Source of the DNA: Nonlabens ponticola
GTDB taxonomy: Bacteria > Bacteroidota > Bacteroidia > Flavobacteriales > Flavobacteriaceae
DNA length: 32,000 bases
Reading direction: 5' to 3'
NCBI RefSeq assembly: GCF_003966335.1
Contig: NZ_CP034549.1
Location: forward strand, 1,620,001-1,652,000
This document shows, piece by piece, positions 4,205 through 30,088 of this stretch (its first letter is position 1; each line of letters starts with the position of its first letter). The notes below the pieces were generated by a model. It was not told where the DNA came from, did no database searches, and saw only the letters and a program-made list of their open reading frames with translations. A program made the translations under genes and the position numbers.

Positions 4205-4288
4205 AAAATTTCAAAATTTTACCGAAGGCTAATATAGTGCATGTGGGTAGAACATGCGTTAAAGCTTATCTGGCTTTATTGAAATATC

Positions 4289-4933
4289 CTACAATCCTGC
4301 TTGCTTAAACATGGCTTTGAATTCGCTAAGCATCATCGCTGTCGCACCCCAAACAATTTGCTCCTGTAAAAGAAAACAAGGCACTTCTACCTTGCTTAAA
4401 TAACTGGTAGATAATATTTGGCTACTCACATTTGCTTCATCCATTAGTTGTTGAAGAGGCACTTCAATAACTGATTTTACCTCAGTTGCTTGAAGTTTGA
4501 AAATAGGTGAGTGATCAAGATATCCTAAATAAGGTCTAACCATAAAGTTACTAGGAGGAATGTACAGCGGTGTGCCAGCGGTAATCACTTTTTGTAGGGA
4601 TATGGGAATCCCTATTTCCTCTTCAGTTTCTCGCAGCGCTGTGTATTCAAAATCCTTATCACCTTTTTCTGCTCGACCGCCAGGAAAAGCGATTTGACCA
4701 CTGTGTTTACCAGTGGAAATCATTCGCTCAATCAAGACGAAATAGGATTCATCATTTTTAGGATATAAAAGCATCATGGTGGCTGCTTGCTTTGCATCTT
4801 TGCTTTTTTTAGCTACTAATTTCAATTCGTCAAGACGTTCCATGGCTGCCATGGATAATTGTGCTTCTTGACCAGGCAACGGCATATTGCTTAATTTTGA
4901 AACTTGAGATAAAAAATCATTGAATGAACTCAC
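4289..4933 (-). CDS. Nudix hydrolase, CoA pyrophosphatase-like
   Basis: Nudix box GGRAEKGDKDFEYTALRETEEEIG. The N-terminus (FNDFLSQ) resembles the NudL family. GTG start at 4933. Confidence 0.8.
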   Translation of the reverse strand: MSSFNDFLSQVSKLSNMPLPGQEAQLSMAAMERLDELKLVAKKSKDAKQAATMMLLYPKNDESYFVLIERMISTGKHSGQIAFPGGRAEKGDKDFEYTALRETEEEIGIPISLQKVITAGTPLYIPPSNFMVRPYLGYLDHSPIFKLQATEVKSVIEVPLQQLMDEANVSSQILSTSYLSKVEVPCFLLQEQIVWGATAMMLSEFKAMFKQAGL

Positions 4934-11094: not shown

Positions 11095-11232
11095 AGTACT
11101 TATATGGGCTATTAATAGATGATGCAAAAGTAGTCGATATTGCTGTGGTAACTAACAGTTGAAGCGGTTGTGAGAGCATCATTTTTCAACGATTTATCGT
11201 GAGTTGTTAACCGCTGCGATTACATTTGTTTT

Positions 11233-12048
11233 ATGAACTTATCAAGGCGCTTGATTAAATTTTATGTGGACAGTAGTTTGCATGTTGCGCTTGGGCTCAC
11301 ATCGCTTACCATCGTTAGCTTTTTGAAGTTTAATTTGCCGATCGAATTGAAGACTATAGCGTTGGTATTTTTTAGCACAGTCTCAGGGTACAACTTGATC
11401 AAGTATAGTCACCAATGGCGCACAGATTTGAACCACCATTTGGCTATATTATGTTTGAGTACCGTTTTTGCCCTATTTAGTATGGTGCTATTGTCGTTTC
11501 ATAATTGGTTGACAATTGCAATAATTGCTAGTGTTACATTTATCAGTGTTTGGTATGTCTTACCAAAACAATATGGCTTGAGCCTGCGTAGAATGCCCAT
11601 AATGAAATTGATTGCCGTAGGTATAACGTGGGCATTGATGAGTATAGCGCTGCCAATTGCGGAAAGTGAGCTACTCTTCTTTTTTCTTAGAGTGCCTAGT
11701 TTTTTAACAATTTTATTTACACAGACAGTGCTGCTAGTAATGGTGTGGTGCTTGCCATTTGAAATAAGAGATCTTAAAGTTGATGACCCTAACTTAAAAA
11801 CGTTGCCGCAACTTATCGGAGTTCCTTTAACAAAGGTTGTGGGCTACATATTATTGATCGCTTGTGGATTACTTGGGATTTTAGTCGACAATTATGACAA
11901 TGGATGGAACGAGACTGATATATTAATTTATCTCTTAACAGCCCTGTTACTTTACTTTTCAACTCAAAGCAGGTCAGATTATTATGCCTCGCTTGTTGTG
12001 GAATCCATACCTGTCTTATGGATGATTTTGCTAATTATCGCTGATTAG
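11233..12048 (+). CDS. polytopic inner-membrane protein (possibly UbiA-like prenyltransferase fold)
   Basis: 271 aa with about 8 hydrophobic helices. An Asp-rich loop (FEIRDLKVDD) is reminiscent of the second UbiA motif, but I see no clear first motif, so the function is uncertain. Confidence 0.55.
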   Translation: MNLSRRLIKFYVDSSLHVALGLTSLTIVSFLKFNLPIELKTIALVFFSTVSGYNLIKYSHQWRTDLNHHLAILCLSTVFALFSMVLLSFHNWLTIAIIASVTFISVWYVLPKQYGLSLRRMPIMKLIAVGITWALMSIALPIAESELLFFFLRVPSFLTILFTQTVLLVMVWCLPFEIRDLKVDDPNLKTLPQLIGVPLTKVVGYILLIACGLLGILVDNYDNGWNETDILIYLLTALLLYFSTQSRSDYYASLVVESIPVLWMILLIIAD

Positions 12049-12293
12049 CGGCTCATGTGCTTTTCTAGCAATTTCTTGATACGCAGTTTTTCCTTATCGG
12101 TTAATCTTACCCATTTGAGTTTATTGAGATTGCGCGAGAATGTAGCATTATTGGTATGAAAGGATCTACAACCTGGGCAATGCGTTTTATGAAGTTTGAG
12201 CCTGAATTTCTCCTTTGGGTTCAAGTCCCGATATTGATCGCGAGTGCTTAAAACCTGTGCGTCGTCGCACTTGATAAATATTCTTCCTGCCAT
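12045..12293 (-). CDS. small soluble zinc-binding anti-sigma factor (ZAS, HxxxCxxC)
   Basis: 82 aa with no TM segment. It contains Cys9 plus H35-x3-C39-x2-C42. Its ATG overlaps the sigma-factor stop (TAATG). Confidence 0.6.
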   Translation of the reverse strand: MAGRIFIKCDDAQVLSTRDQYRDLNPKEKFRLKLHKTHCPGCRSFHTNNATFSRNLNKLKWVRLTDKEKLRIKKLLEKHMSR

Positions 12294-12859
12294 TACTCGT
12301 TCTCGTTAAACCATTTATCTTTTAAGCATTCCATCAGCTGCACTCTAGCGCGGTGCAATATTACCCATAAATTTGACGGCGTCACATCATGTTCCTTACA
12401 GATAGTTTCTGTATCAATATTGTCAATAGACTTTTTCACAAAAATGGTAGCGTATCGTTCAGGTAGGTTTTGAATACAAGCGTTGAGTGCATCACCTAGC
12501 TCTTGCTGTTCAATCTCATCCTCGATGGTAGGATTGCGCATATCCTGTACACGTTCTTCCAGCCAGTCGCCCTCTTGATCTGATGTCTCCAGGTAGCTTA
12601 CCCGCACTTCGGCGCGACCTTTTTTTGAATTTTGCTTGCGGTATTGATCAATAATCTTGCGTTTGAGAATTGAGACCAGCCATGTGCGCTCAGTACTATT
12701 TCCCTCAAAACGATGCGCACTTTTAAGTCCTGCGAGAAAAGTTTCTGAAACTATATCCTGCGCCAATGCCGAGTCATTCACTCGAGTAATGGTGTAATTG
12801 AATAGGTAGTCGCCGTAGCGATCTACCCATTTGTTAGGATCTAGTTTTACTTCTGGCAT
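12293..12859 (-). CDS. RNA polymerase ECF-type sigma-70 factor
   Basis: 188 aa. It has region-2-like (DIVSETFLAGL...ERTWLVSILKRKIIDQYRK) and region-4-like (TICKEHDVTPSNLWVILHRARVQL) segments. Confidence 0.9.
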   Translation of the reverse strand: MPEVKLDPNKWVDRYGDYLFNYTITRVNDSALAQDIVSETFLAGLKSAHRFEGNSTERTWLVSILKRKIIDQYRKQNSKKGRAEVRVSYLETSDQEGDWLEERVQDMRNPTIEDEIEQQELGDALNACIQNLPERYATIFVKKSIDNIDTETICKEHDVTPSNLWVILHRARVQLMECLKDKWFNENE

Positions 12860-18991: not shown

Positions 18992-20884
18992 ATGTCACAA
19001 CAAGGAAAAATTAATGTTGCTGTAGAGAACATCTTCCCATTAATCAAGAAGTTCCTGTATAGCGATCACGAGATTTTTTTAAGAGAATTGATATCCAATG
19101 CGACCGATGCTACACTAAAATTGAAGCACCTAGCCAGCATAGGCGAGGCGAGTGTAGAGTTGGGCGACCAGCAAATTGAAGTGAAGATCGATAAGGACGG
19201 CAAGAAGCTGCATATTATTGATCAAGGTATAGGTATGACCGAGGATGAGGTGCAGAAGTACATCAATGAGGTGGCCTTTTCTGGAGCTGAGGAATTTCTA
19301 GAGAAATATAAAGATACGGCTAGCGATAGTGGTATTATTGGTCACTTTGGTCTTGGGTTTTATAGTGCCTTTATGGTGGCTGATAAGGTTGAGATCATGA
19401 CCAAATCATATAAGGACGAGCCAGCAGTGCACTGGAGCTGTGATGGATCACCTAACTATACGATCGAGGCGGCAGATAAGAAAGACTTTGGTACCGAGAT
19501 CATTTTGCACATCTCTGACGATGAGCAAGAGTTTCTAGAAGAAAGCCGCATACGTGAGCTATTGGTCAAGTACAATAAGTTCATGCCAGTGCCTATCAAA
19601 TTTGGTACGAAGACTATCACGCTAGACAAGCCAGAAGACGCCAAAGAAGATGATCCAGCACCGACTGAAGAAGTCGATAATATCATCAATAATCCTAATC
19701 CAGCATGGACCAAGCAGCCTAGCGAGCTAGAAGACAAGGATTATAAGGAGTTTTATATAGAGTTGTACCCAATGCAATTTGAGGAGCCTCTCTTTAATAT
19801 TCACCTGAATGTAGATTATCCATTCAACTTGACGGGTATCCTGTATTTCCCAAAAATGACACAGGACCTAAACGTGCAAAAGGATCGCATCCAGCTGTAT
19901 CAAAATCAAGTGTTTGTAACGGATAATGTGGAAGGAATCGTACCAGAATTCCTGACTATGCTGCGTGGAGTCATCGACAGTCCAGATATACCACTGAATG
20001 TTTCTCGTTCTTATCTGCAAGCTGATGGTGCTGTTAAGAAAATATCCAGCTACATCACCCGTAAAGTAGCAGATAAGCTCAAGTCCTTATTCAACGAAGA
20101 CCGCAAGGCTTTTGAAGAAAAGTGGAACGATATCAAGATCGTCATCGAGTACGGTATGTTGAGTGAGGAGAAATTCTTTGAGAAGAGCGATGCCTTTGCA
20201 TTATATCCTACGGTCGATGGTACTTATTACACCTGGAGTGAGTTGATGGACAAGATCAAACCTACTCAAACTGATAAGGATGATAAGACGGTCATATTAT
20301 ATGCATCTAACAAGGACGAGCAGCACAGCTACTTGAAAGCTGCTAAAGACAAAGGTTATGAAGTTTTATTGTTAGACTCGCCGATCGTGAGCCACTTGAT
20401 GCAAAAGCTAGAAACCTCTAAAGAGAAAGTAAGCTTTGCCCGTGTGGATGCAGATCATGTAGATAATTTGATTAAGAAAGAAGAAGATCAAATATCAAAG
20501 TTGTCTGATGACGAGAAGGAAGAATTGAAAACCAGTATCACAGAAGCTATAGACAACAGCAACTTCACTGTTCAAGTAGAACCTATGAGCAGTGATGCAG
20601 CGCCATTCATCATCACACAACCAGAGTTCATGCGTCGCATGAAAGAGATGCAGGCAACTGGTGGCGGTGGCGGCATGATGGGCTTTGGTAACATGCCAGA
20701 CATGTACAATCTTGTAGTCAATGCAAACCATGAGTTGGTTCAAGAGATATTTAGTACTAAAACGAAGAAGAAAAAGGATCGATTGATCCAGCAATCTTTT
20801 GATTTGGCCAGGTTATCCCAAGGACTTTTAAAAGGTGAAGCGTTGACTCAATTTGTCAACAGAAGTTATGAGTTGATCAAGTAG
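18992..20884 (+). CDS. htpG: molecular chaperone HtpG (Hsp90)
   Basis: 630 aa. GHKL ATPase motifs ELISNATDA and GHFGLGFYSAF. The length is typical of bacterial HtpG. Confidence 0.95.
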   Translation: MSQQGKINVAVENIFPLIKKFLYSDHEIFLRELISNATDATLKLKHLASIGEASVELGDQQIEVKIDKDGKKLHIIDQGIGMTEDEVQKYINEVAFSGAEEFLEKYKDTASDSGIIGHFGLGFYSAFMVADKVEIMTKSYKDEPAVHWSCDGSPNYTIEAADKKDFGTEIILHISDDEQEFLEESRIRELLVKYNKFMPVPIKFGTKTITLDKPEDAKEDDPAPTEEVDNIINNPNPAWTKQPSELEDKDYKEFYIELYPMQFEEPLFNIHLNVDYPFNLTGILYFPKMTQDLNVQKDRIQLYQNQVFVTDNVEGIVPEFLTMLRGVIDSPDIPLNVSRSYLQADGAVKKISSYITRKVADKLKSLFNEDRKAFEEKWNDIKIVIEYGMLSEEKFFEKSDAFALYPTVDGTYYTWSELMDKIKPTQTDKDDKTVILYASNKDEQHSYLKAAKDKGYEVLLLDSPIVSHLMQKLETSKEKVSFARVDADHVDNLIKKEEDQISKLSDDEKEELKTSITEAIDNSNFTVQVEPMSSDAAPFIITQPEFMRRMKEMQATGGGGGMMGFGNMPDMYNLVVNANHELVQEIFSTKTKKKKDRLIQQSFDLARLSQGLLKGEALTQFVNRSYELIK

Positions 20885-21389: not shown

Positions 21390-22703
21390 ATGAAAAGAGT
21401 AATTCTTTGTGCTTCGGCACTACTGGCAGGCGGCTTTGCGATGGCACAGCAACCAGCACCACAGACTGTTCCCACAAGAACAGCTCAAACTATCGCACCA
21501 CGCGTGGTCACCATACCTACTGCAGGTGCAAGCGCAGGAAGCAACTATTCTGACATCGATCAGGCCGGTATAGGTAGTGATGCCACTGTGAAACAACAAG
21601 GTACAGCACAGGGCTCCTTTATTTCTCAAGTAGGAAGCGACAATGCCAATCGTAATGATGTTGTTGTAAGACAATGGGGTAATGTAACTGCTCTTAGTGG
21701 TGAAGGAAACTATGGAGAAGTTGATCAAAATGGTGCAGGTAATACATTTTACGGTACCCAAGAAGGTGACTTTAACCAGATGTTCTCTACTCAAGTAGGT
21801 CTAGACAATGATGTATACGTACAACAAGGTGATGACACTGCTGAGCAGGCTGAAGGGAATTTAGCAATAGTCGATCAGGATGGATCAATCAACGTAGCCT
21901 CTGTTGAGCAACGTTTTGATAACAATCAGTCATCAATCACTCAAAGAAATAGTGTTGGCGCGATCAGTGGTAACGTTTCCTACCAAGATCAGGTAGCTAA
22001 TCCAAATCAGTCTGCGGGTCATGTAGCAATAGGTGAGCAATGGGGTGAAGGTAATGAATTGGCGCAATTTCAGGTAGGGCCTGGTGACGGTAACTATGCT
22101 GAGGCCTTACAAGGTAATGCAACAGATGCTGCTCAAGGAGGATTTGTGCAACAAGTTCAAACTGGTTCATTAAATGAAGCTTACGCAACTCAAATAGGAG
22201 TAGATAACACATTGTATCAAGAACAAGACGGTAGCGGCAACACAGCACAAGCTATTCAGGCTGATAATCCTGCAAGTGGTAATGATATGGTTGCTATGCA
22301 ATATCAAAGTGGAGATGATCACAGTGCCTATGTAAAGCAAAATGGTTCTTTGAATGAGGCATATCAAGAACAATTTGGTGAAGGCAACATTTCTAACATT
22401 GAGCAAAGAGGTGGCGTGAATCCACTAGAAGCAAATCTAGCAACTACTTTACAAAGTGGAGCGTTGAACCAATCTGATATACTTCAAAAAACAAGAGGTA
22501 ACGTATCATTTGTTGACCAATTAGGGAATGGTCACCAATCAATAATTAACCAAAATGCTAACGGAACATCAGCTCCAGGAGCACAAGGATTCAATACTGC
22601 AACTGTTTCTCAACGTAATGCAAACGTTTCTTTCTCGCCAGCTCAATCTCGCACTTTTGTAGGAACGCCAGCTGCTCAAAGAGTACGTAACAATAACAAC
22701 TAA
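21390..22703 (+). CDS. giant curlin-repeat protein, paralog 1 (CsgA-like functional amyloid subunit)
   Basis: 437 aa with a signal peptide (MKRVILCASALLAGGFAMAQ). The mature part is Q/N/G/A/D-rich and Cys-free. It is built from many Q-x-G-x-x-N-x-(A/F)-x3-Q modules, e.g. VDQNGAGNTFYGTQEGDFNQMFSTQVGLDNDVYVQQG. Confidence 0.8.
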   Translation: MKRVILCASALLAGGFAMAQQPAPQTVPTRTAQTIAPRVVTIPTAGASAGSNYSDIDQAGIGSDATVKQQGTAQGSFISQVGSDNANRNDVVVRQWGNVTALSGEGNYGEVDQNGAGNTFYGTQEGDFNQMFSTQVGLDNDVYVQQGDDTAEQAEGNLAIVDQDGSINVASVEQRFDNNQSSITQRNSVGAISGNVSYQDQVANPNQSAGHVAIGEQWGEGNELAQFQVGPGDGNYAEALQGNATDAAQGGFVQQVQTGSLNEAYATQIGVDNTLYQEQDGSGNTAQAIQADNPASGNDMVAMQYQSGDDHSAYVKQNGSLNEAYQEQFGEGNISNIEQRGGVNPLEANLATTLQSGALNQSDILQKTRGNVSFVDQLGNGHQSIINQNANGTSAPGAQGFNTATVSQRNANVSFSPAQSRTFVGTPAAQRVRNNNN

Positions 22704-22711
22704 AACATTTT

Positions 22712-22741
22712 ATCCAGGTGAGGTTTTTATCTCATCTGGAT
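22712..22741 (+). terminator. intercistronic stem-loop after curlin 1 (possible partial terminator / mRNA stabiliser)
   Basis: ATCCAGGTGAG-gtttttat-CTCATCTGGAT. The 11-bp stem has one G-U pair and is followed by a weak T-tract (tcttt). Confidence 0.5.
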
Positions 22742-22757
22742 CTTTAAAACACACATT

Positions 22758-24026
22758 ATGAAACATTTAATTATAACTGCTTCAGCTCTATTGGTAGGAT
22801 CGATAGCTGCAGCACAATCGCAACAACCTATAGTGGCACCTGTTGCACAGACAATTTCAACTGCGAGCGCTGCGCAAGGTGGCAACTCTTCTAAGGTTGA
22901 TCAATCAGGTATAGGTAGTGATGCTGTTGTGGCACAACAAGGTACCGCAAACGGTTCATTCATTGCTCAGGCAGGTACTGACAATGGAAATCGCAACGTG
23001 GCTGACGTACTACAACATGGTAATGTACAGCCTAGCATTAGCGGTCACTTAAACTACTCAGACATCGCACAGGTAGGAGCTGGAAATGAGTTTATGGTGA
23101 CTCAACAAGGTGATCTAAACCAGATGTTTGGTACTCAAGATGGTGTTGATAATGCCGCACTGGTACAACAAGGCGCTGATGGACCGCAGCAAGCTGAAGG
23201 TAATTTAGCTTTAGTAGATCAGTCAGGTCTAGGCAATGATGCGGAAGTACAGCAGCGTTGGGATAACAATCAGTCAAGCATTTTACAAAGTAATGATGCG
23301 GTTGCGGGTGTAGGTAACAAATCATTCCAAAGTCAAAAAGCTAATCCTAACCAGTCTGCAGGACACCGTGCAATAGGTGAGCAGTATGGTGATGGTAATC
23401 AATTGGTCCAAATTCAAGAAGGTCCAGGTTCTGGAAACTACGCGCAATCTAATCAAGGTAATGCAACAACTGCAGCAACAACTGCTTTTGCACAGCAGGT
23501 ACAGTCTGGTGAAGGAAATGAAGCATACAATACCCAATTTGGTGTGAATGATGAATCTTTCCAGGAGCAAGTTGGGTCTGACAACCTTGCAGAAGTAAAG
23601 CAAAATACACTTCCTACTATTGGTGCAGATAACTATGCGGCACAGTTCCAGGATGGATCTGATAATGAAGCTCGTGCTGATCAAAACGGATTTAATCAAG
23701 ATGCTTTTCAAGAGCAGTACGGAACTAATAATGTCTCTACAATCAAACAACGCGCTGGACAAGTTGCTGGTAATCTAGCTCTTTCTATTCAAAGAGGAGA
23801 TGCTAATATATCTGCAATTACTCAAAACCTTGATGGAAATAGTGCTATGGTAGATCAGTTAGGAGATGGCCATCACAGTGTGGTAAATCAAAATGCCTCT
23901 CAAAATGCATCTGCGAGACCTAATGCTGGCTTCAATACGGCAACCGTAACTCAAAGAAATGCAAACGTTTCATTGACTCGTGCGACTCAAAGAGCAGCAG
24001 CTGTCAAGAGACACTTCAACAATTAA
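22758..24026 (+). CDS. giant curlin-repeat protein, paralog 2
   Basis: 422 aa with a signal peptide. It shares conserved blocks with paralogs 1 and 3 (GIGSDA.V.QQGTA.GSFI.Q; ANPNQSAGH.AIGEQ.G.GN.L.Q.Q.GPG.GNYA; GFNTATVTQRNANVS). Confidence 0.8.
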   Translation: MKHLIITASALLVGSIAAAQSQQPIVAPVAQTISTASAAQGGNSSKVDQSGIGSDAVVAQQGTANGSFIAQAGTDNGNRNVADVLQHGNVQPSISGHLNYSDIAQVGAGNEFMVTQQGDLNQMFGTQDGVDNAALVQQGADGPQQAEGNLALVDQSGLGNDAEVQQRWDNNQSSILQSNDAVAGVGNKSFQSQKANPNQSAGHRAIGEQYGDGNQLVQIQEGPGSGNYAQSNQGNATTAATTAFAQQVQSGEGNEAYNTQFGVNDESFQEQVGSDNLAEVKQNTLPTIGADNYAAQFQDGSDNEARADQNGFNQDAFQEQYGTNNVSTIKQRAGQVAGNLALSIQRGDANISAITQNLDGNSAMVDQLGDGHHSVVNQNASQNASARPNAGFNTATVTQRNANVSLTRATQRAAAVKRHFNN

Positions 24027-24037
24027 TCAACCTTTTT

Positions 24038-24063
24038 TAATCCACCAGTGAACACTGGTGGAT
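24038..24063 (+). terminator. intercistronic stem-loop after curlin 2
   Basis: AATCCACCAGTG-aa-CACTGGTGGATT is a perfect 12-bp inverted repeat. Realistically this is a 10-bp stem with a 6-nt loop. An A/T-rich tail follows. Confidence 0.55.
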
Positions 24064-24085
24064 TATTAATATTAAAAAACGAATT

Positions 24086-25360
24086 ATGAAGTACACAATA
24101 ATAACGGCTGCTATCCTTTTAGGTGGATCAGTAGCTATGGCTCAAGGTCCGGTACGTAAAGCGGTAACCACGCCAGTTGTAAAGACAAATCCTAAGGCAG
24201 GTGCTACTGTAGGTAGCAACTACTCTGAAATTGATCAGGTTGGAATAGGTAGTGATGCCTTTGTAGAACAACAAGGAACTGCAAATGGATCATTCATCCT
24301 ACAAACAGGAGCTGCTAAAATGAACCGCAACTCGGTTGATTTACGTCAATGGGGTAATGTAACTGCCGCAAGTGGTGAGGCAAATTATTCATCAGCTATT
24401 CAAGATGGCTCTGGAAATAGTCTTGTTGCAGATCAATCTGGTGATGCAAACAGTCTATTCAGTACACAAGTAGGTCTTGATAACGAGGCAATTCTTGCGC
24501 AAGGAAGCATGACTGCTCAAAAGGCAGAAAATAACATATCTGTCATCGATCAAGACGGTAAGGATAACTTTGCCACCGTTTTTCAAGGATTTGATGATAA
24601 TGAAGCATCTATCCTTCAAAGAAATGATCAAGTGACTGGTGTTGGTAATCGCGCTTTTCAAGATCAGCGCTCTAATCCTAATGGTAGTGCTCTCGCTAAT
24701 ACCGCGATAGGTACTCAGTATGGTGACGGCAACGACCTTGTACAAATTCAAAGTGGTCCTGGAAACGATAATTATGCTGAGGCCAATCAAGGTGATGCAG
24801 CAACAGCTGCTTCTGGAGCATTTGTACAACAAGTACAAACTGGAGACGGTAACGAGGCATTTGCTGATCAATTCTTGACTGGTGATACGGCCTTCCAAAC
24901 GCAATCAGGTTCTGACAACGTTGCTGTGGCGAGACAAAATACCGCTGGTGTATCAACTGGAGGAAATAATTTGACCGATCAATGGCAAGAAGGAGAAAAC
25001 AACAGAGCTACCTCTAATCAATTTGGAAACAACAACAGTTCTTTCCAGGAGCAGTACGGTGAGCGTAATAGTTCTGTAACTACTCAGGCGATGGGTCAAG
25101 ATGCAGGAAATCTAGCAAATAGCATTCAATCTGGGATCAGAAATATTTCTCGTATTGATCAAGGAGCACATGGTAATGTATCATTTGTTGACCAGACAGG
25201 TGATAGACAACACAGTATCATAAAGCAAAATCGTCCAGGTATTGGTGGTACGGTAGCAGAAGGTTACAACACTGCAACTGTTACACAACGCAACGCAAAT
25301 GTTGCTTTGACTGCTCAAACTCAAAGAGCAGCAACAATCAAGCGTCGTTTTGATGACTAA
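24086..25360 (+). CDS. giant curlin-repeat protein, paralog 3
   Basis: 424 aa with a signal peptide, the same module architecture, and the conserved C-terminal block YNTATVTQRNANVALTAQTQRAATIKRRFDD. Confidence 0.8.
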   Translation: MKYTIITAAILLGGSVAMAQGPVRKAVTTPVVKTNPKAGATVGSNYSEIDQVGIGSDAFVEQQGTANGSFILQTGAAKMNRNSVDLRQWGNVTAASGEANYSSAIQDGSGNSLVADQSGDANSLFSTQVGLDNEAILAQGSMTAQKAENNISVIDQDGKDNFATVFQGFDDNEASILQRNDQVTGVGNRAFQDQRSNPNGSALANTAIGTQYGDGNDLVQIQSGPGNDNYAEANQGDAATAASGAFVQQVQTGDGNEAFADQFLTGDTAFQTQSGSDNVAVARQNTAGVSTGGNNLTDQWQEGENNRATSNQFGNNNSSFQEQYGERNSSVTTQAMGQDAGNLANSIQSGIRNISRIDQGAHGNVSFVDQTGDRQHSIIKQNRPGIGGTVAEGYNTATVTQRNANVALTAQTQRAATIKRRFDD

Positions 25361-25411: not shown

Positions 25412-25426
25412 TTATAATTGAAGCTT

Positions 25427-25933
25427 ATGAAATGGTATCTGATTTTAGTTTTATTCTTTTCCAGTTTTCTTGCAGTTGCTCAGACTTATAAAGAAGACAA
25501 GAAAGTCGTGAATTCAAACTCTTTAGAAACATCTAATGAGCAACTCAATTTTATTTCAAACAATCAAGCTAATGCCTCTAACAATCCTGTTACTAGAGGT
25601 AATTCTGTGTTTATTGAACAGGCAGGTTTTGGTAATCAGGCATCTGTTACGGCAGCGTCTGATAATAGCGAAATCAATCTATTCCAATCTGGAAATTTTA
25701 ATCAAAGTTTTATAAAGCTTAATGCTACATCTATTAGAGAGAATGTATTGCAAAGGGGAAATAGCAATTTATTCATTGATTATAGTGTGCATGGAGCAAG
25801 AACACATAATGTTGATTTAATTCAAGACGGTAGTTACAATACGGTAATAAGTGCTGGTAGAAATAGCATTTCTGAAAGATTGCAAATCAATCAAACTGGT
25901 AACGGTGCTGCGGCATTTGTAATTCATTTTTAG
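25427..25933 (+). CDS. small five-repeat curlin (CsgB/CsgA-sized; candidate nucleator)
   Basis: About 168 aa from ATG 25427 (MKWYLILVLFFSSFLAVAQ). There are about five 22-aa units (GNSVFIEQAGFGNQASVTAAS / DNSEINLFQSGNFNQSFIKLNAT / ...LQINQTGNGAAAFVIHF). Its stop lies 1 nt before the next ATG. Confidence 0.7.
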   Translation: MKWYLILVLFFSSFLAVAQTYKEDKKVVNSNSLETSNEQLNFISNNQANASNNPVTRGNSVFIEQAGFGNQASVTAASDNSEINLFQSGNFNQSFIKLNATSIRENVLQRGNSNLFIDYSVHGARTHNVDLIQDGSYNTVISAGRNSISERLQINQTGNGAAAFVIHF

Positions 25934-25934
25934 A

Positions 25935-26666
25935 ATGGCTAGAATCATTTTATTCTTATTAATGATCCCATGTTCAATGGTGCATGCTCAAGAAAGTTTT
26001 TACAATAGGGAAGTAAAGGCTGTTATTGAATTAGAGGATAAGGAAGGATTTGTAAACATTACCGGTATAGCAACTAATCTTACAAGTGCTGATCAGGGAA
26101 TCAGGTATGAACTCGCAGTGATAAGAAAAGATACCGCAAGTGGTAACAGTACTAAAAATAAGCAAACAGGAAGAACAGTTCTCAAGGCTAGTGATAAGGT
26201 ACTGTTGTCAAAAACAAGTGTCAATCTCAATATACCAGATTTGATAACGATCATGTTGTTAATATATGATGTTGATGATAAGTTACTAGGCAAGGAGATT
26301 AAAAGAATAGAACCCAATACTCGAGAAATCGCGGTAGTCCAATCAACAGCGTATGATGGTATAGAATTTAAAGGTATCGTGCTCAAAAAATTGCGCACTG
26401 CGCCTGCTCGCAAATTCTATGACTATTTCTATGAGAAATATAGGTTTTACAATATCAACGGTAGTGAAATCGTGACCATCAAAGAAGTATTTGGTCAAGG
26501 TAGAACTTCTAAGGTAGAAGTACTGGTAGGTAGAGATCTCGTATTTGAATTTTTTCTGAATCCTACTGAAAAGTATATAGAACAAATGGGCGATAATGCC
26601 ATCTACAAAGTGTATAACAAATTTGAATCACTCAAGGCGCAAGAAGCCGCCATTAAAAATTATTAA
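25935..26666 (+). CDS. csgE: CsgE-like curli secretion specificity factor with an N-terminal CsgC/CsgH-like extra domain
   Basis: 243 aa with a signal peptide. The C-terminal ~100 aa align by eye to E. coli CsgE (ARKFYDYFYEKY vs GHDFYRAFSDKW; IVTIKEVFGQGRTSKVEVLVGRDLVFEFFLNP vs [31 protein letters not shown]). The N-terminal ~105 aa resemble CsgC (see finding). Confidence 0.7.
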   Translation: MARIILFLLMIPCSMVHAQESFYNREVKAVIELEDKEGFVNITGIATNLTSADQGIRYELAVIRKDTASGNSTKNKQTGRTVLKASDKVLLSKTSVNLNIPDLITIMLLIYDVDDKLLGKEIKRIEPNTREIAVVQSTAYDGIEFKGIVLKKLRTAPARKFYDYFYEKYRFYNINGSEIVTIKEVFGQGRTSKVEVLVGRDLVFEFFLNPTEKYIEQMGDNAIYKVYNKFESLKAQEAAIKNY

Positions 26667-26668
26667 TA

Positions 26669-27094
26669 ATGCTCAACAAAATTACAACACCGCTCACGTT
26701 GTTAATTTTACTTTGCCTTGCGGCAACAAGTAACGCTCAACAACTTGTTTATAAACCTATCAATCCAGCCTTTGGCGGTGATACGTTTAATTATCAGTGG
26801 CTTATTCAAAGTGCTGAACAACAAAATAAATTCACAGATCCCGCGCAACGTGGACTCAACGATCCACAATCAGAGCTTGATAGCTTTGCAGACGGACTTA
26901 ACCGACAAATCTTAAGTCAATTATCCAGATCATTAATCAATGCTCAAATTGATCTTAATGATGGGTTAGAACCAGGAACTTTCAGTTTTGGTAGTCTAGA
27001 GGTAGAAGTTCTAGAGTCGTTAGATGGACTTGTGGTAAACATTCTCGATACTAACACAGGAGACACCACTCAAGTAGTTATACCTACAAATTAA
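26669..27094 (+). CDS. csgF: curli assembly component CsgF
   Basis: 141 aa with a signal peptide. The mature N-terminus QQLVYKPINPAFGGDTFNYQWLIQSAEQQNKF matches the E. coli CsgF signature [26 protein letters not shown]. Confidence 0.85.
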   Translation: MLNKITTPLTLLILLCLAATSNAQQLVYKPINPAFGGDTFNYQWLIQSAEQQNKFTDPAQRGLNDPQSELDSFADGLNRQILSQLSRSLINAQIDLNDGLEPGTFSFGSLEVEVLESLDGLVVNILDTNTGDTTQVVIPTN

Positions 27095-27104
27095 AACGGT
27101 GTCC

Positions 27105-28616
27105 ATGAAAAAATCAATCAACCCAATAGGGCTCGTACTCTTGTGCTTACTTTTTTCAAGTTGTGGAGCCTACTTTAATCAGCCACTTGATACTCAAAAT
27201 GCGCGAGTAGGAGAAACTACAGACGCCACGTTGCGTTTGAGAGAATTGCCGCCACCTGTTGCACCAGCGGTTGTAGGCGTATATAAATTTGAGGATCAAA
27301 CAGGACAGTTCAAACAGGCAGAGTCTGGTTCAACCTTTAGCAATGCCGTTACTCAAGGTGGTACTACTATTCTTGTAAAGGCACTAGAAGATTCTAAATG
27401 GTTCACACCGATAGAGCGAGAAAACTTAGGTAATCTTATTAATGAACGCAATATTATTCTTTCAACTCGCAAGGATTTTGCACAAAAGACAAACACCCAG
27501 GTAAAAGACTTGCCACCATTACTTTATGCGGGTGTCTTGATAGAAGGTGGTATCGTTTCTTATGATACTAATGTACTTACCGGTGGTGTCGGCGCGAGAT
27601 ACTTTGGCGCTGGTGGTTCTACAAAATATCGTCAAGATCGAGTTACCGTTTACTTAAGAGTAGTCTCTACTAAGAATGGTGCCATCATGAAAACGGTTTA
27701 TGTTTCTAAATCTATTTACTCACAAGCTGTAGATGCGAGCCTTTTCAGGTACGTGAACTTCAAACGATTACTAGAGGCAGAAACCGGTTTCACGCGCAAC
27801 GAGCCAGGACAATTAGCTGTAAAAGAAGCTATTGAAAAGGCCGTAGAAGCTCTTATAGTAGAAGGTATCAGCGCAGATTTATGGTATCCAGCAGGTGGCG
27901 AGCCAGTCGCTAATAAGATGATTGCTGACTACCGTCAGGAAAAAGAAGTGGCAGAGCGTACTGACGTTTATCAACGCGATCTTCTTGATCGACGCAGTCG
28001 CTGGAGACTGGATATAGGTGCTGGTGGAACCTATGCTAACAACGATTTACCTGACCCATACTATGAATATTCTATCACGGGTGGGTTGAAATATAATTTC
28101 TCACCACATCTGGGAATTTATGGTAGTATTAATAGATATCGATTGAAGAATACTGATTTATTCAATAGAGAATTTAGCAGTAGTGATCTCAATCTAGAGT
28201 TGACCGTGTTACCGTTTGAAAAATTCACTCCTTATGCCTATGGTGGCGCTGGACTCAATTATGCTAATTCTTTACAAGTAGTGGATTTTAAAGCTCAAGC
28301 AGGCCTAGGCTTTGAATACATGGCCACGCCAGCTATCGGGCTCAAGGTTTATGGAGAGTACAATGTCGTATTTTCTGATGAACTGGAAAACCTCGTTGCA
28401 GGACAGCAGGATGATCACTATTACAAATTTGGCGCTGGTATCAATATATACATTGGTGGTAGCAAGGCAAAGGATAATTCCGCGCGCTATCAACGTCGCA
28501 GGGCAGCTCGAGATGCAAGAAGAAAGAGTCGTCTAGAACCGCCCATTGATAGTAGTAATGATACTACGATTCCGCTTTCGCGAAAGCAAAATAATAACAC
28601 ATCTCAACAACTTTAA
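27105..28616 (+). CDS. csgG: curli secretion channel lipoprotein CsgG fused to a C-terminal 8-strand OMP beta-barrel-like domain and basic tail
   Basis: Lipobox LLFSSC. Residues ~50-265 align closely to E. coli CsgG (VYKFEDQTGQFK, WFTPIERENLGNLINERNII, GGVGARYFGAGGSTKYRQDRVTVYLRVVS, FTRNEPGQLAVKEAIEKAV). Residues ~301-454 form 8 alternating amphipathic strands. The tail is RYQRRRAARDARRKSR. I prefer ATG at 27105 over GTG at 27099. Confidence 0.9.
   Translation: MKKSINPIGLVLLCLLFSSCGAYFNQPLDTQNARVGETTDATLRLRELPPPVAPAVVGVYKFEDQTGQFKQAESGSTFSNAVTQGGTTILVKALEDSKWFTPIERENLGNLINERNIILSTRKDFAQKTNTQVKDLPPLLYAGVLIEGGIVSYDTNVLTGGVGARYFGAGGSTKYRQDRVTVYLRVVSTKNGAIMKTVYVSKSIYSQAVDASLFRYVNFKRLLEAETGFTRNEPGQLAVKEAIEKAVEALIVEGISADLWYPAGGEPVANKMIADYRQEKEVAERTDVYQRDLLDRRSRWRLDIGAGGTYANNDLPDPYYEYSITGGLKYNFSPHLGIYGSINRYRLKNTDLFNREFSSSDLNLELTVLPFEKFTPYAYGGAGLNYANSLQVVDFKAQAGLGFEYMATPAIGLKVYGEYNVVFSDELENLVAGQQDDHYYKFGAGINIYIGGSKAKDNSARYQRRRAARDARRKSRLEPPIDSSNDTTIPLSRKQNNNTSQQL
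28574..28587. repeat. palindrome core GCTTTCGCGAAAGC inside the csgG 3' tail (encodes P-LSRK-Q)
   Basis: Read directly. It lies 27 nt before the csgG stop and 32 nt before the next ATG. Confidence 0.9.
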
Positions 28617-28618
28617 TC

Positions 28619-30088
28619 ATGAGAGCAAAAATCATATTTATTGTATCGATCCTAGTATTGGCTATTTCCTGTACGGAAGATACCGTTGAGGTCAACGGCA
28701 AGGGAACTGTAACAGGTAGAGTAGTGGCCGATGAAAGTTTTGAGCCACTAGCAAATGTCAAAATATCGACCAACCCAAATACGAGCACTACATTTACTGA
28801 TGCAGATGGACAGTTCTCACTAGAAATTGAGAATGGCACCTATGCCGTAAAAGCAGAGAAAGATGGATTTCTAGTGGACTTTGAAAGTGCCGATGTAGAG
28901 ACAGATGAGGAAACGACTCTCGTGTTTGAGTTAAAAGTAAGCACGGCAAATAATCAACCGCCTAGCGCACCAGAACTAATTTTTCCTGAGGATGAAGCGG
29001 TAGAAATACCCTTCAACTTTACGCTAGAATGGGAGTCTCTTGATGTAGATCAAGACAGCCTTACTTACACGGTTACCTTGAGGAATGCGAGCGATAACAG
29101 TGTTAGAACTTTTGAAGATATTGAGGAAGATGAGCTTGAGGTGACCGTTGAGTACGGCACTACCTATTTCTGGCAAGTGACGGTTAATGATGGTATCAAC
29201 GATCCAGTAAATAGCTCTTTAAACAGCTTTACTACTCAATCAATACCTGCTAATCGATTCTTGTACGTGCGTAAAGATGATGACAATAATGTCATTTACA
29301 GTGCAGATCGTGATGGCAACGAGATTGCCCTTACGGACGAGTCGCGCAATAGTTGGCGCCCACGAGTCAATAAGCAAGTAGGGCGCATTGCTTTCTTGCG
29401 CAGTGTAGGTAGTAATACACAGCTTTTTACCATGAATTTAAACGGCAATGATGTACGACAGGTGAGTAGCAGTGTTCCCGTACGTGGTTTTAATCTGGAT
29501 GAGATTGATATAGCTTGGGCAAACAATGGTTCGGCTATATATTATCCATCACAAAATCGACTTTACCGCATCAACACCAATGGTAGTGGCTTGACTCAAG
29601 TTTATCAAACGGTTAATGGCAATCTTATTAGTGAAGTTGATTATAATAATGGCGTCATAGCTTTAAAAACCAATGATCTAGATGGGTATAATGTTGAGAT
29701 ATTTACCATTAATGAGAGTGGTACGAGACTCAATACTGTTTTGACAGGAATCGATGGCGCTGCTGGTGGTCTTGATTTGAGCATCGATAATACACGCCTG
29801 TTATATAGCCGTGATGTGTCTGGGTTTGAAAGTAGTGATTACCGCAGATTAGACAGTCGCGTTTTTATACATCAGTTTAATAATCAATCAAACACTGAAA
29901 TCTCCTTTAATAAACCTGGTGGTACTAATGATCTAGATCCTAGATTCTCACCTACTGATGCTCAAGTGATTGTTACCAATCGAGATAATGATGATACAGG
30001 CGTTGGTACAATTGATATACTAGAGTTGGGTCAGGTTGATCCACGTAATAACACCTTTGAAAATGCATTTATGCCAGATTGGGAATAG
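28619..30088 (+). CDS. lipoprotein with CarboxypepD_reg-like, Ig/FN3-like and TolB-like (PD40) beta-propeller regions
   Basis: 489 aa with lipobox LAISC. Residues 26-106 read GKGTVTGRVVADESFEPLANVKIS...TDADGQFSLEIENGTYAVKAEKDGF (carboxypeptidase-regulatory-like fold). Residues ~112-206 form an Ig-like module (TYTVTL...TYFWQVTVNDG). The C-terminal part has repeated IYSADRDGNEIALTD / RIAFLRS..NTQLFTMNLNGND motifs, as in TolB/PD40 propellers. Its ATG is 2 nt after the csgG stop. Confidence 0.7.
   Translation: MRAKIIFIVSILVLAISCTEDTVEVNGKGTVTGRVVADESFEPLANVKISTNPNTSTTFTDADGQFSLEIENGTYAVKAEKDGFLVDFESADVETDEETTLVFELKVSTANNQPPSAPELIFPEDEAVEIPFNFTLEWESLDVDQDSLTYTVTLRNASDNSVRTFEDIEEDELEVTVEYGTTYFWQVTVNDGINDPVNSSLNSFTTQSIPANRFLYVRKDDDNNVIYSADRDGNEIALTDESRNSWRPRVNKQVGRIAFLRSVGSNTQLFTMNLNGNDVRQVSSSVPVRGFNLDEIDIAWANNGSAIYYPSQNRLYRINTNGSGLTQVYQTVNGNLISEVDYNNGVIALKTNDLDGYNVEIFTINESGTRLNTVLTGIDGAAGGLDLSIDNTRLLYSRDVSGFESSDYRRLDSRVFIHQFNNQSNTEISFNKPGGTNDLDPRFSPTDAQVIVTNRDNDDTGVGTIDILELGQVDPRNNTFENAFMPDWE

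What the first reader, a model, noticed from the sequence alone, without database searches (positions are those of the whole stretch)
25992..26309. Apparent CsgC/CsgH-like chaperone domain fused to the N-terminus of CsgE
**Two-part protein.** The 243-aa protein is about twice the length of E. coli CsgE. Its C-terminal half aligns to CsgE.

**N-terminal half.** Residues ~20-125 align by eye to E. coli CsgC as I remember that sequence:
- query: GFVNITGIATNLT...YELAVIRKDTASGNSTKNKQTGRTVLKASDKVLLSKTSVNLNIPDLITIMLLIYDVDD
- CsgC: GDVYTIIPEVTLT...RVQILSLREGSSGQSQTKQEKTLSLPANQPIALTKLSLNISPDDRVKIVVTVSDGQ

The CsgC CxC motif is absent here, as it is in CsgH.

**Why it matters.** CsgC and CsgH are sub-stoichiometric inhibitors of periplasmic curlin amyloidogenesis. 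CsgE caps and gates CsgG. A covalent fusion would put the anti-amyloid activity at the secretion pore. That would be a plausible solution for handling very long, highly amyloidogenic substrates. No separate csgC or csgH gene is visible in the locus.
Basis: inference. Interest (0 to 1): 0.75.

Follow-up and report, generated by a model that had tools for sequence, protein, structure and literature searches.

The report
CsgH-like chaperone domain fused to CsgE
In the curli (bacterial amyloid fibre) operon of the marine flavobacterium Nonlabens ponticola, two proteins that are separate in E. coli-type systems are made as one: an anti-amyloid CsgC/CsgH-type domain is joined to CsgE, the plug of the secretion pore, and this arrangement is common in Flavobacteriaceae but absent from the literature I could search.

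Summary
The observation and its structural reading hold.

**The gene.** Window 25935-26666 (+) encodes a 243-aa secreted protein in a tight curli operon: 3 long curlins, a short curlin, this gene, csgF, csgG.

**C-terminal half.** Residues 146-241 are a CsgE domain (Pfam above its cut-off; solved CsgE 2NA4, E=7.8e-6).

**N-terminal half.** Residues 27-125 form a confident seven-stranded beta-sandwich.
- Its best two matches among 350,542 PDB chains are CsgH and CsgC.
- A family profile hits only CsgC significantly in the PDB.
- 46 of 54 relatives match NCBI's CsgH model.

The domain has no cysteines. It therefore fits neither the CsgC nor the CsgH disulphide definition.

**Electrostatics.** The domain is basic (pI 8.9) and the cognate curlins are acidic (pI 4.1-4.5). 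This is the electrostatic pattern of CsgC/CsgH.

**Distribution.** The fusion is conserved across Flavobacteriaceae: 127 fused and 5 double-domain proteins out of 187 collected. No paper found describes it.

**Function.** Anti-amyloid activity tethered at the pore is inferred, not shown.

**Bonus finding.** In some Flavobacterium relatives the two halves are split at an A9-A12 tract. The CsgE part is usually in the -1 frame, has no signal peptide, and is still conserved. This suggests slippage-dependent synthesis of the fusion.

The parts
25935..26666 (+). csgH-csgE fusion gene (243 aa plus stop). It starts 1 nt after the preceding curlin gene and ends 2 nt before csgF.
   Evidence: the ORF is conserved full-length in 26 aligned homologues, with invariant residues in both halves
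25935..25988 (+). Sec-type signal peptide (aa 1-18, MARIILFLLMIPCSMVHA|QE). It is the only signal peptide of the protein.
   Evidence: Read directly from the sequence: a basic n-region, a hydrophobic core, and an A-Q/AQ| motif conserved in the family alignment. No signal-peptide predictor was available. The Cys13 context (MIPC) is not a lipobox, and the Cys is not conserved.
26013..26309 (+). CsgC/CsgH-family seven-stranded Ig-like beta-sandwich domain (aa 27-125). It is cysteine-free, with pI about 8.9.
   Evidence: AF2 models; Foldseek ranks 1-2 are CsgH and CsgC; NCBIfam CsgH E=2.7e-6; family profile against PDB CsgC E=2.9e-5; hhalign 86.7%; pI
26310..26369 (+). Acidic flexible linker (aa 126-145, EPNTREIAVVQSTAYDGIEF). 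It contains no poly-A tract, so the fusion is hard-wired.
   Evidence: pLDDT below 50 for aa 131-145 and pTM 0.47 for the two-domain model; DNA read; length varies among homologues
26370..26663 (+). CsgE domain (aa 146-243): strand, helix, three strands, long C-terminal helix.
   Evidence: Pfam PF10627, 34.9 bits against cut-off 25; solved CsgE 2NA4 E=7.8e-6; secondary structure
21390..25360 (+). Three paralogous long curlin (CsgA-like) genes: 437, 422 and 424 aa. The mature proteins have pI 4.1-4.5. They are the presumed substrates.
   Evidence: Curlin_rpt hits; NCBIfam CsgA/CsgB hits; pI
25418..25933 (+). Short curlin (171 aa), a CsgB/CsgA-like protein and candidate nucleator.
   Evidence: Curlin_rpt E=5.1e-5; NCBIfam CsgA E=2.8e-11
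26669..27094 (+). csgF
   Evidence: Pfam PF10614 E=3.8e-38
27099..28616 (+). csgG with a C-terminal outer-membrane beta-barrel extension (505 aa)
   Evidence: Pfam PF03783 E=4.6e-62 at aa 57-264; OMP_b-brl at aa 299-447, E=1.9e-5, below the Pfam cut-off

Best explanation
**What it is.** The gene encodes a periplasmic two-domain curli accessory protein. It is a fusion of a CsgC/CsgH-family amyloid-inhibitor domain (N-terminal) with the CsgE secretion adaptor and pore cap (C-terminal).

**Shown here.**
- One signal peptide at the N-terminus.
- A seven-stranded Ig-like domain homologous to CsgH/CsgC.
- A disordered linker of about 20 residues.
- A CsgE domain.
- The gene sits in the csgE slot of a tight operon, directly before csgF and csgG.
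- The architecture is conserved across Flavobacteriaceae.
- No separate csgC or csgH gene lies in the window.

**Inferred.**
- The CsgE domains assemble as in E. coli into the multimeric (nonameric) cap under CsgG.
- Each subunit therefore carries a basic CsgH-like domain on a flexible tether.
- A ring of anti-nucleation modules then surrounds the pore entrance.
- There they would transiently engage the very acidic, 420-437-aa curlins through charge, as CsgC and CsgH do. This would keep the curlins disordered until CsgE hands them to CsgG.
- So the fusion would couple 'keep soluble' and 'deliver to the pore' in fixed 1:1 stoichiometry and at one location.
For: **Architecture.** ORF and operon. 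CsgE domain: Pfam above the gathering score and 2NA4 E=7.8e-6.

**N-domain homology.**
- NCBIfam CsgH E=2.7e-6 and CsgC E=0.004 on the protein itself.
- 46/54 diverse relatives hit the CsgH model (best 2.9e-14); 26/54 hit the CsgC model (best 3.9e-8).
- 15/54 hit Pfam Tafi-CsgC and 6/54 hit Pfam CsgH.
- The family profile has only CsgC as a significant PDB hit, E=2.9e-5.
- hhalign 86.7%.

**Fold.** AF2 gives pLDDT 92.6 and seven strands. CsgH and CsgC are ranks 1 and 2 of the PDB.

**Functional residues.** CsgC R40 and K57 are critical for potency (PMC4838910). They align with R57 and K76 here, and Q58 aligns with the near-invariant Q77.

**Electrostatics.** N-domain pI 8.9 against curlin pI 4.1-4.5. 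This meets the '>2 pI units above CsgA' pattern of PMC4838910.

**Conservation.**
- 127 H-E and 5 H-H-E proteins among 187 family members.
- 38 of the 48 genome loci, plus L001 and L002, carry the fused gene, across Nonlabens, Aquimarina, Salegentibacter, Salinimicrobium, Lutibacter, Aureibaculum, Polaribacter and Flavobacterium.
- Invariant residues occur in both halves.

**Linker.** Flexible: pLDDT below 50.
Against: - No biochemical test exists.
- The domain lacks both disulphide patterns used to define CsgC-like and CsgH-like proteins. However, the CsgC C37S mutant kept its potency (PMC4838910).
- The protein scores below NCBI's curated CsgH cut-off (27.4 against 35 bits), and its N-domain has no Pfam hit.
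- The fold is a generic Ig-like sandwich. GH2 enzyme domains score only about tenfold worse in Foldseek E-value.
- The basic-domain/acidic-substrate pattern is not universal. Only 16 of 45 loci have a pI difference above 2. Where a free paralogue coexists (L001, L002), the fused domain is acidic and the free one is basic. In some lineages the tethered domain may therefore do something else.
- It is unknown whether nine extra 12-kDa domains are compatible with the CsgE cap.
Confidence: 0.65

Rival explanations
1. The N-domain descends from CsgH but has been repurposed. Tethered to CsgE, it would act as a spacer, a substrate-selectivity or docking module, or a regulator of cap assembly. It would not be a sub-stoichiometric nucleation inhibitor.
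For: N-domain pI ranges from 4.4 to 9.6 across the family. In genomes that also carry a free basic paralogue (L001 pI 9.65; L002 pI 9.01), the fused domain is acidic (5.16 and 4.55). 44 of 54 domains lack cysteines. Some proteins carry two tandem N-domains.
Against: In this window the domain is basic (pI 8.9) against curlins of pI 4.1-4.5. It keeps residues aligned with CsgC R40, K57 and Q58. No free csgC/H-like gene lies in the window, so the inhibitor role would otherwise be unfilled locally.
Confidence: 0.2
2. The fusion is only a precursor. The linker is cut in the periplasm, releasing ordinary free CsgH-like and CsgE proteins from a single signal peptide.
For: The linker is disordered and varies in length and sequence. 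In split Flavobacterium relatives a free CsgH product is encoded by standard decoding.
Against: No conserved cleavage motif is evident in the linker. Nothing in the data calls for processing. H-H-E proteins exist.
Confidence: 0.08
3. The N-terminal half is an unrelated generic Ig-like domain, and its resemblance to CsgC/CsgH is convergent or due to chance.
For: Many GH2 Ig-like domains have Foldseek E-values within about tenfold of CsgH and CsgC. Pairwise phmmer against CsgC gives E=1.7. The narrow family profile did not reach CsgC or CsgH.
Against: Four independent curated sequence models recognise the family: NCBIfam CsgH and CsgC, and Pfam Tafi-CsgC and CsgH. CsgC is the only significant PDB sequence hit. 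CsgH and CsgC are the top two structural hits. The domain occurs only in curli operons.
Confidence: 0.03
4. The long ORF is an assembly or annotation artefact that joins two genes.
For: In some Flavobacterium genomes the two parts are annotated as separate genes (PMC12781566).
Against: The window junction has no homopolymer. The fused frame is conserved in 26 aligned homologues and in 38 of the 48 independent genome loci. The CsgE part never has its own signal peptide.
Confidence: 0.01

Closest known systems
CsgH (R. palustris, PDB 2N59) and CsgC (E. coli, PDB 2XSK/2Y2T): the CsgC-like family of periplasmic curli amyloid inhibitors (Taylor et al. 2016, PMC4838910)
   Same: - Seven-stranded Ig-like sandwich of about 100 residues.
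- Detectable profile homology.
- Secreted, and encoded in a curli operon.
- Basic domain facing acidic curlins.
- Residues aligned with CsgC R40, K57 and Q58 are retained.
   Different: - Not a free monomer: it is covalently joined to CsgE.
- No cysteines, so neither the CxC motif nor the N-/C-strand disulphide is present.
- About 16-20% identity.
- Below NCBI's CsgH cut-off, with no Pfam hit for this particular sequence.
- Activity is untested.
CsgE (E. coli, PDB 2NA4; Pfam PF10627), the curli secretion specificity factor and nonameric cap of CsgG
   Same: - The C-terminal 98 residues match the family above the Pfam threshold.
- Same operon slot, directly upstream of csgF-csgG.
- E42 is conserved as E184.
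- A conserved arginine lies in the head loop.
   Different: - E. coli CsgE is about 108 residues when mature, with a short disordered acidic N-tail. Here that N-tail is replaced by a 20-residue linker and a 100-residue domain.
- The conserved Arg (R190) aligns one position away from the essential R47.
- Oligomerisation and capping are untested.
Separate csgH and csgE genes of Flavobacterium species as annotated by PGAP (e.g. strain B330r, PMC12781566)
   Same: The same two modules, in the same order and at the same operon position. They are homologous to the two halves of the window protein.
   Different: There the halves lie in different reading frames, separated by an A9-A12 tract. In the window they form one uninterrupted frame without a homopolymer.
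Recoding at A-rich slippery sites that yields two products from one gene: E. coli dnaX A_AAA_AAG -1 frameshift, and Thermus dnaX / IS-element transcriptional slippage (recalled from general knowledge, not checked in a paper here)
   Same: This applies to the split Flavobacterium relatives only. They have a zero-frame A_AAA_AAG/A/C heptamer inside an A9-A12 run, followed by a stop codon either at once or within a few codons. The downstream domain is open in the -1 frame.
   Different: It is not present in the window gene. No experimental evidence exists for either product. One locus (L055) has the +1 frame.

Membership tests
CsgC/CsgH (CsgC-like curli chaperone family) | Seven-stranded Ig-like beta-sandwich of about 100 residues, superimposable on CsgC/CsgH | tested here: met
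   AF2 N-domain model: pLDDT 92.6, seven strands. Foldseek PDB rank 1 is CsgH 2N59 (TM 0.60/0.66); rank 2 is CsgC 2XSK (TM 0.67/0.79, rmsd 2.6 A, 97 columns). The full-length model gives the same result.
CsgC/CsgH (CsgC-like curli chaperone family) | Sequence-profile homology to CsgC/CsgH models | tested here: met
   Window protein: NCBIfam CsgH E=2.7e-6, at 27.4 bits below the curated cut-off of 35; CsgC E=0.004. Family: 46/54 hit CsgH (best 2.9e-14) and 26/54 hit CsgC; 15/54 hit Pfam Tafi-CsgC and 6/54 hit Pfam CsgH. Profile against PDB CsgC E=2.9e-5. hhalign 86.7%. Homology is met at family level. The window sequence alone is sub-threshold.
CsgC/CsgH (CsgC-like curli chaperone family) | Disulphide pattern used by Taylor et al. 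[quoted passage not shown] | tested here: not met
   The mature protein has no cysteine, as the sequence shows. 44 of 54 family N-domains have none, and only 1 has two or more. The CsgC C37S mutant retains potency (PMC4838910), so this argues against membership of either named subgroup, not against the mechanism.
CsgC/CsgH (CsgC-like curli chaperone family) | Positively charged sheet; pI more than 2 units above the cognate CsgA | tested here: met
   N-domain core pI 8.9 against mature curlins at 4.09, 4.40 and 4.46. R57 and K76 align with CsgC R40 and K57. Family-wide, only 16 of 45 loci exceed 2 units. The surface location of the charge on the model was not computed.
CsgC/CsgH (CsgC-like curli chaperone family) | Secreted to the periplasm and encoded within a curli operon | tested here: met
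   N-terminal signal peptide identified by inspection. The gene lies between curlin genes and csgF-csgG.
CsgC/CsgH (CsgC-like curli chaperone family) | Free-standing monomeric protein | tested here: not met
   The domain is fused in-frame to CsgE.
CsgC/CsgH (CsgC-like curli chaperone family) | Sub-stoichiometric inhibition of CsgA primary nucleation | not testable with these tools
   This needs ThT kinetics with purified proteins.
CsgE (PF10627) | Match to the family model above the curated threshold | tested here: met
   PF10627: E=1.9e-8, 34.9 bits against cut-off 25, residues 146-238, covering model positions 2-94 of 105.
CsgE (PF10627) | Homology to the solved E. coli CsgE structure | tested here: met
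   Family profile against 2NA4: E=7.8e-6, 84 columns. The fold of the C-domain was not searched separately, because the Foldseek list for the full model is dominated by N-domain hits.
CsgE (PF10627) | Essential head arginine (E. coli R47) and the conserved R43/E42 region (PMC6050966) | tested here: inconclusive
   The alignment pairs invariant E184 with E42. It places the invariant G189-R190 opposite R47-W48, so the arginine is offset by one position, and R43 is not conserved (V185).
CsgE (PF10627) | Gene directly upstream of csgF-csgG | tested here: met
   Stop at 26666, csgF starts at 26669, csgG starts at 27099.
CsgE (PF10627) | Forms a nonameric cap on CsgG and delivers CsgA | not testable with these tools
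   This needs biochemistry or cryo-EM.
Programmed -1 frameshift or transcriptional slippage site (considered for the split Flavobacterium relatives only, not for the window gene) | Slippery X_XXY_YYZ heptamer or a run of at least 9 A in the zero frame, with the downstream ORF open in the -1 frame across the site | tested here: met
   All 11 split loci have an A9-A12 run. 10 of 11 have CsgE in the -1 frame, open through the run. The zero frame reads GAA AAA AAA AAG followed at once by a stop codon in 5 loci, and an A_AAA_AAN variant in the others. The window gene has no such tract.
Programmed -1 frameshift or transcriptional slippage site (considered for the split Flavobacterium relatives only, not for the window gene) | Both products are actually made | not testable with these tools
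   This needs cDNA amplicon sequencing and proteomics.

The most novel reading that the evidence does not exclude
**Core reading.** In Flavobacteriaceae, CsgE is never made as a stand-alone protein. It reaches the periplasm only as the C-terminal part of a CsgH-CsgE fusion. The secretion cap is then a ring of tethered anti-amyloid domains. That makes the fusion a natural 'Rosetta-stone' proof that the CsgC/H step and the CsgE step act on the same substrate molecule at the pore.

**Constraint on CsgE topology.** The CsgE N-termini would have to point away from the centre of the cap, which bears on an unresolved question about CsgE orientation.

**Flavobacterium lineages.** In at least two Flavobacterium lineages a conserved A10 tract in the linker turns the same gene into a two-product recoding device. 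Standard decoding would give free CsgH. One extra A in the mRNA, or a -1 ribosomal slip, would give CsgH-CsgE. This would set the ratio of free inhibitor to pore adaptor, and it could also act as a phase-variable switch for curli export.
Probability: 0.35. Interest if true: 0.8.

Novelty: new variant of a known kind. Interest (0 to 1): 0.6.

Why it matters
**An open question.** How CsgC/CsgH passes soluble CsgA on to CsgE and CsgG is not settled. In E. coli the two are separate, and CsgC acts transiently at ratios as low as 1:1000. A conserved natural fusion argues that the two activities work on the same substrate at the same place. It also offers a ready-made construct for testing this by ThT kinetics and by cryo-EM of a CsgG-(CsgH-CsgE) complex.

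**CsgE orientation.** The fusion bears on where the CsgE N-terminus sits in the cap. Two orientations fitted the low-resolution map (PMC6050966). Nine extra 12-kDa domains would be hard to place at the centre of the disc.

**Annotation.** Databases label these proteins only as 'CsgE family'. Surveys have reported Bacteroidetes as lacking csgC (PMC3521004). The inhibitor module has therefore been under-counted in this phylum.

**Engineering.** A tethered inhibitor-adaptor could help the export of long, highly amyloidogenic proteins through the curli pathway.

**Possible recoding.** The poly-A-split relatives may be a new example of recoding or phase variation that controls a functional-amyloid system.

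Tried and rejected
- **Narrow profile.** The Nonlabens-centred profile (A1) against the PDB found CsgE but not CsgC or CsgH. A broader profile of 54 sequences (A3) was needed.
- **Pfam.** On the window protein and on its isolated N-domain, Pfam gives no CsgC or CsgH hit. This explains the plain 'CsgE' annotation.
- **Genome scan.** Scanning genome contigs with the broad N-domain alignment failed, because it had no conserved stretch of 7-10 columns. The full-length alignment A1 was used instead. That choice biases the loci towards close relatives and CsgE-containing genes.
- **Lipoprotein reading.** The single Cys (C13, context MIPC) is not a lipobox and is not conserved. Rejected.
- **Frameshift or assembly artefact.** There is no homopolymer at the window junction, and the fused frame is conserved. 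Rejected.
- **Tandem DNA repeats in the curlin genes.** None were found.
- **The (A)9->10 change in Flavobacterium B330/B330r (PMC12781566).** I first read it as direct evidence of phase variation. The reference is a PacBio-based consensus and the reads are Illumina reads of the ancestor. A homopolymer consensus error cannot be excluded, so I treat it only as weak support.
- **Universal electrostatic complementarity.** Tested across the family and not upheld.
- **Literature.** Searches for a described CsgH-CsgE fusion found nothing. Subscription-only papers and InterPro or Gene3D architectures could not be checked.
Full report
**1. The observation**

The window carries a compact curli operon on the + strand, downstream of htpG (18992-20884).
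- Three paralogous long curlin genes: 21390-22703, 22758-24026 and 24086-25360 (437, 422 and 424 aa).
- A short curlin: 25418-25933 (171 aa).
- The gene in question: 25935-26666 (243 aa).
- csgF: 26669-27094.
- A long csgG: 27099-28616.
- A CarboxypepD_reg-domain gene: 28619-30088.

Intergenic gaps in the part from the short curlin gene to the CarboxypepD_reg gene are 1-4 nt. The finding's coordinates, 25992-26309, are residues 20-125 of the 243-aa ORF. The protein is identical to one annotated 'CsgE family curli-type amyloid fiber assembly protein' of Nonlabens ponticola (Flavobacteriaceae).

**2. The C-terminal half is CsgE**

Pfam PF10627 matches residues 146-238 at 34.9 bits, against a gathering score of 25. 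A profile of 26 homologues hits the solved E. coli CsgE (2NA4) at E=7.8e-6 over 84 columns. The AlphaFold2 model gives strand, helix, three strands and a long helix for residues 149-241.

**3. The N-terminal half is a CsgC/CsgH-family domain**

On the single sequence the signal is weak but specific.
- NCBI's CsgH model matches residues 30-112 at E=2.7e-6, 27.4 bits, below its cut-off of 35. The CsgC model matches at E=0.004.

I then collected the family. An exhaustive HMMER search with an N-domain profile found 309 cluster representatives at E<=1e-3. From 54 diverse N-domains (alignment A3):
- The profile's only significant PDB hits are CsgC, at E=2.9e-5.
- 46/54 members individually hit NCBIfam CsgH (best 2.9e-14) and 26/54 hit CsgC (best 3.9e-8).
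- 15/54 hit Pfam Tafi-CsgC and 6/54 hit Pfam CsgH.
- hhalign against E. coli CsgC gives 86.7% probability, E=4.4e-6. The CsgC sequence was recalled from memory. It was validated because residues C37, R40, K57, K60 and D93 fall where PMC4838910 numbers them.

Structurally, the N-domain modelled alone is very confident (pLDDT 92.6, pTM 0.84, seven strands).
- Of 350,542 PDB chains, the top two Foldseek hits are CsgH 2N59 (E=1.6e-5, TM 0.60/0.66) and CsgC 2XSK (E=1.2e-4, TM 0.67/0.79, rmsd 2.6 A over 97 columns).
- The full-length model gave the same answer.
- Generic Ig-like domains of GH2 enzymes follow within about one order of magnitude. Fold alone would not be decisive. The combination with four independent sequence models and the exclusive curli-operon context is decisive.

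**4. How it compares with CsgC/CsgH features**

Taylor et al. (PMC4838910) define CsgC-like and CsgH-like proteins by their disulphide pattern. They show that potency depends on positive charge around the beta4-beta5 edge (R40, K57 and K60 in CsgC). Both inhibitors have a pI more than 2 units above CsgA.
- The mature window protein has no cysteine at all, and 44/54 family domains have none. It belongs to neither named subgroup but to a cysteine-free branch. The CsgC C37S mutant retained activity, so this does not argue against the mechanism.
- R57 and K76 align with R40 and K57. The near-invariant Q77 aligns with Q58.
- The domain core has pI 8.9, against 4.09-4.46 for the three long curlins.
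- Across the family the picture is mixed. The long curlins are always acidic, but N-domain pI ranges from 4.4 to 9.6, and only 16/45 loci exceed a 2-unit difference.
- In two genomes that also carry a free paralogue, the free protein is basic (9.65 and 9.01) and the fused domain is acidic (5.16 and 4.55).
- In this window no second N-domain-like ORF exists, and the fused domain is basic.

**5. Architecture and distribution**

The two domains are joined by a linker of about 20 residues. The linker is acidic, variable in length and predicted to be disordered (pLDDT below 50 for residues 131-145). The two-domain model has pTM 0.47, so the domains have no fixed mutual orientation. There is one signal peptide, at the N-terminus.

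Among the 187 family proteins in hand, 127 are H-E, 5 are H-H-E (two tandem CsgH-like domains before CsgE, e.g. P0045, 395 aa) and 55 are H-only. Many of the H-only proteins are contig-end fragments.

In one-genome-per-species contigs, the fused gene occurs in Nonlabens, Aquimarina, Salegentibacter, Salinimicrobium, Spongiivirga, Lutibacter, Aureibaculum, Polaribacter and Flavobacterium poyangense, among others. It also occurs in Rasiella (L001, fetched). CsgE of Draconibacterium, Prolixibacteraceae, Mariniphaga and Algoriphagus has a different, shorter N-extension that does not match the N-domain HMM.

**6. Most likely mechanism**

Shown: the domain composition, the homology, the secretion signal, the operon slot and the conservation.

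Inferred from the E. coli system (PMC4838910, PMC6050966, PMC5135000):
- The CsgE domains form the multimeric cap under CsgG.
- Each subunit carries a CsgH-like module on a flexible tether.
- A crown of basic anti-nucleation domains therefore surrounds the pore entrance.
- It would keep the very acidic, 420-437-aa curlins disordered until they are handed over.

The fusion fixes the stoichiometry at 1:1 and co-localises the two steps. It also implies that the CsgE N-terminus must sit where nine extra 12-kDa domains can fit. This bears on the two alternative CsgE orientations discussed in PMC6050966.

The main rival is that the tethered domain has been repurposed, as the acidic variants suggest. 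Proteolytic release is a minor rival.

**7. A related finding outside the window**

In four Flavobacterium genome loci, and in seven further loci fetched through proteins ending in '...EKKK', the CsgH-like and CsgE parts are separate ORFs.
- The break always lies in an A9-A12 run.
- In 10 of 11 loci the CsgE part is in the -1 frame and is open through the run.
- In five loci the zero frame reads GAA AAA AAA AAG followed at once by a stop codon, which is a dnaX-type A_AAA_AAG heptamer. The other loci have variants: AAG ATG ATG stop, AAA AAA AAC stop, and so on.
- The CsgE part has no signal peptide and usually no plausible start codon. Yet its ORF is intact (109-120 aa) in all the loci where the full E-frame ORF was read (10 of the 11; in L054 only the first half of the domain matched), although these sequences are only 27-63% identical to each other. 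They fall into at least two clades. It is therefore under purifying selection and must be expressed.
- F. poyangense (A11, fused, '...NEKKKDDVLILPPDDGF...') is sister to Flavobacterium sp. FlaQc-57 (A10, split, -1 frame '...RKKKDDVIIMPADGF...'). One A therefore toggles the two states.
- A/T runs of 9 or more are strongly concentrated in this linker. More than a third of the 51 runs in 464 kb lie there.

The simplest reading has two parts. Standard decoding yields free CsgH. One extra A in the mRNA (transcriptional slippage) or a -1 ribosomal slip yields CsgH-CsgE. DNA-level phase variation is an alternative or an addition.

PMC12781566 lists an (A)9->10 difference at exactly this site between a Flavobacterium strain and its phage-resistant derivative. 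The reference there is a PacBio-based consensus, so I give this little weight.

**8. Novelty**

- Dueholm et al. 2012 reported Bacteroidetes as lacking csgC.
- Taylor et al. 2016 noted CsgH subfamilies in Bacteroidetes without mentioning a fusion.
- Later surveys and reviews count CsgC/CsgH and CsgE as separate genes.
- No paper in the searchable library contains CsgE, CsgH and 'fused' together.
- Databases name the protein only as CsgE, and Pfam sees only the CsgE domain.

I therefore rate it a new variant of a known kind: two known curli modules in a previously undescribed covalent arrangement that is common in one bacterial family.

Caveats: subscription-only literature and InterPro or Gene3D architectures could not be checked, and no function has been measured.

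Noticed in passing
L030:4362-4373, L032:4368-4377, L034:4377-4386, L035:4377-4386, L051:1886-1895, L052:1895-1904, L053:1892-1901, L054:1241-1250, L055:1883-1892, L056:1882-1890, L057:846-855: In Flavobacterium-type relatives the CsgH-like and CsgE parts are split at an A9-A12 tract. In 10 of 11 loci CsgE lies in the -1 frame behind a zero-frame A_AAA_AAN heptamer, with a stop codient either at once or within a few codons. The CsgE part has no signal peptide. Its ORF is intact in the 10 loci where it was read in full, despite only 27-63% identity between them. This is a candidate programmed slippage or frameshift that would make both free CsgH and the CsgH-CsgE fusion, or a phase-variation switch.
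   Followed up: partly
L024:4365-4375 versus L034:4377-4386: F. poyangense has A11 and a fused 244-aa gene. Its sister sequence, Flavobacterium sp. FlaQc-57, has A10 and a split gene. A single A toggles fused and split between close relatives.
   Followed up: partly
P0045 (395 aa), P0046, P0125; hmmsearch: Some relatives carry two tandem CsgH-like domains ahead of the CsgE domain (H-H-E, 5 of 187 proteins).
   Followed up: partly
L001:6001-6450 and 8504-9292; L002:6001-6390 and 10753-11493; L017:1167-1514 and 3956-4711: Some genomes have a free CsgH-like paralogue as well as the fused gene. In L001 and L002 the free protein is basic (pI 9.0-9.7) and the fused N-domain is acidic (4.6-5.2). This hints at a division of labour.
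   Followed up: partly
window 27099-28616: CsgG is 505 aa long. A CsgG domain (aa 57-264) is followed by a C-terminal OmpA-like outer-membrane beta-barrel region (aa 299-447; PF13505 E=1.9e-5, below the cut-off) and a basic tail. The same extension is seen in relatives (L001, L002, L053).
   Followed up: no
window 28619-30088; L001:4500-5993 and 11099-12450: A protein of about 490 aa with an N-terminal CarboxypepD_reg domain follows csgG directly, with a 2-nt gap. It is conserved after both csgG copies in Rasiella rasia. It is a possible additional component of the flavobacterial curli operon.
   Followed up: no
window 21390-25360: Three paralogous curlins of 422-437 aa lie in tandem (mature pI 4.1-4.5), far longer than E. 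coli CsgA. No DNA-level tandem repeats are detectable.
   Followed up: no
L041-L050 (e.g. L042:1378-2127, 249 aa; L049:3791-4363, 190 aa): CsgE homologues of non-Flavobacteriia Bacteroidota (Draconibacterium, Prolixibacteraceae, Mariniphaga, Algoriphagus, Lewinellaceae) have N-terminal extensions of 58-135 aa. These do not match the CsgH-like HMM, and their nature is unknown.
   Followed up: no
L001:1264-6450: Rasiella rasia has two curli loci in tandem. The first has an unannotated 148-aa ORF in the csgE slot with no Pfam hit, and the free CsgH-like gene lies after the CarboxypepD_reg gene.
   Followed up: no
L029 (NVVN01000001.1): A contig labelled 'MAG: Sulfurovum sp.' carries a typical flavobacterial fused csgH-csgE gene. 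The cause is probably a mis-binned contig or a mislabelled MAG.
   Followed up: no
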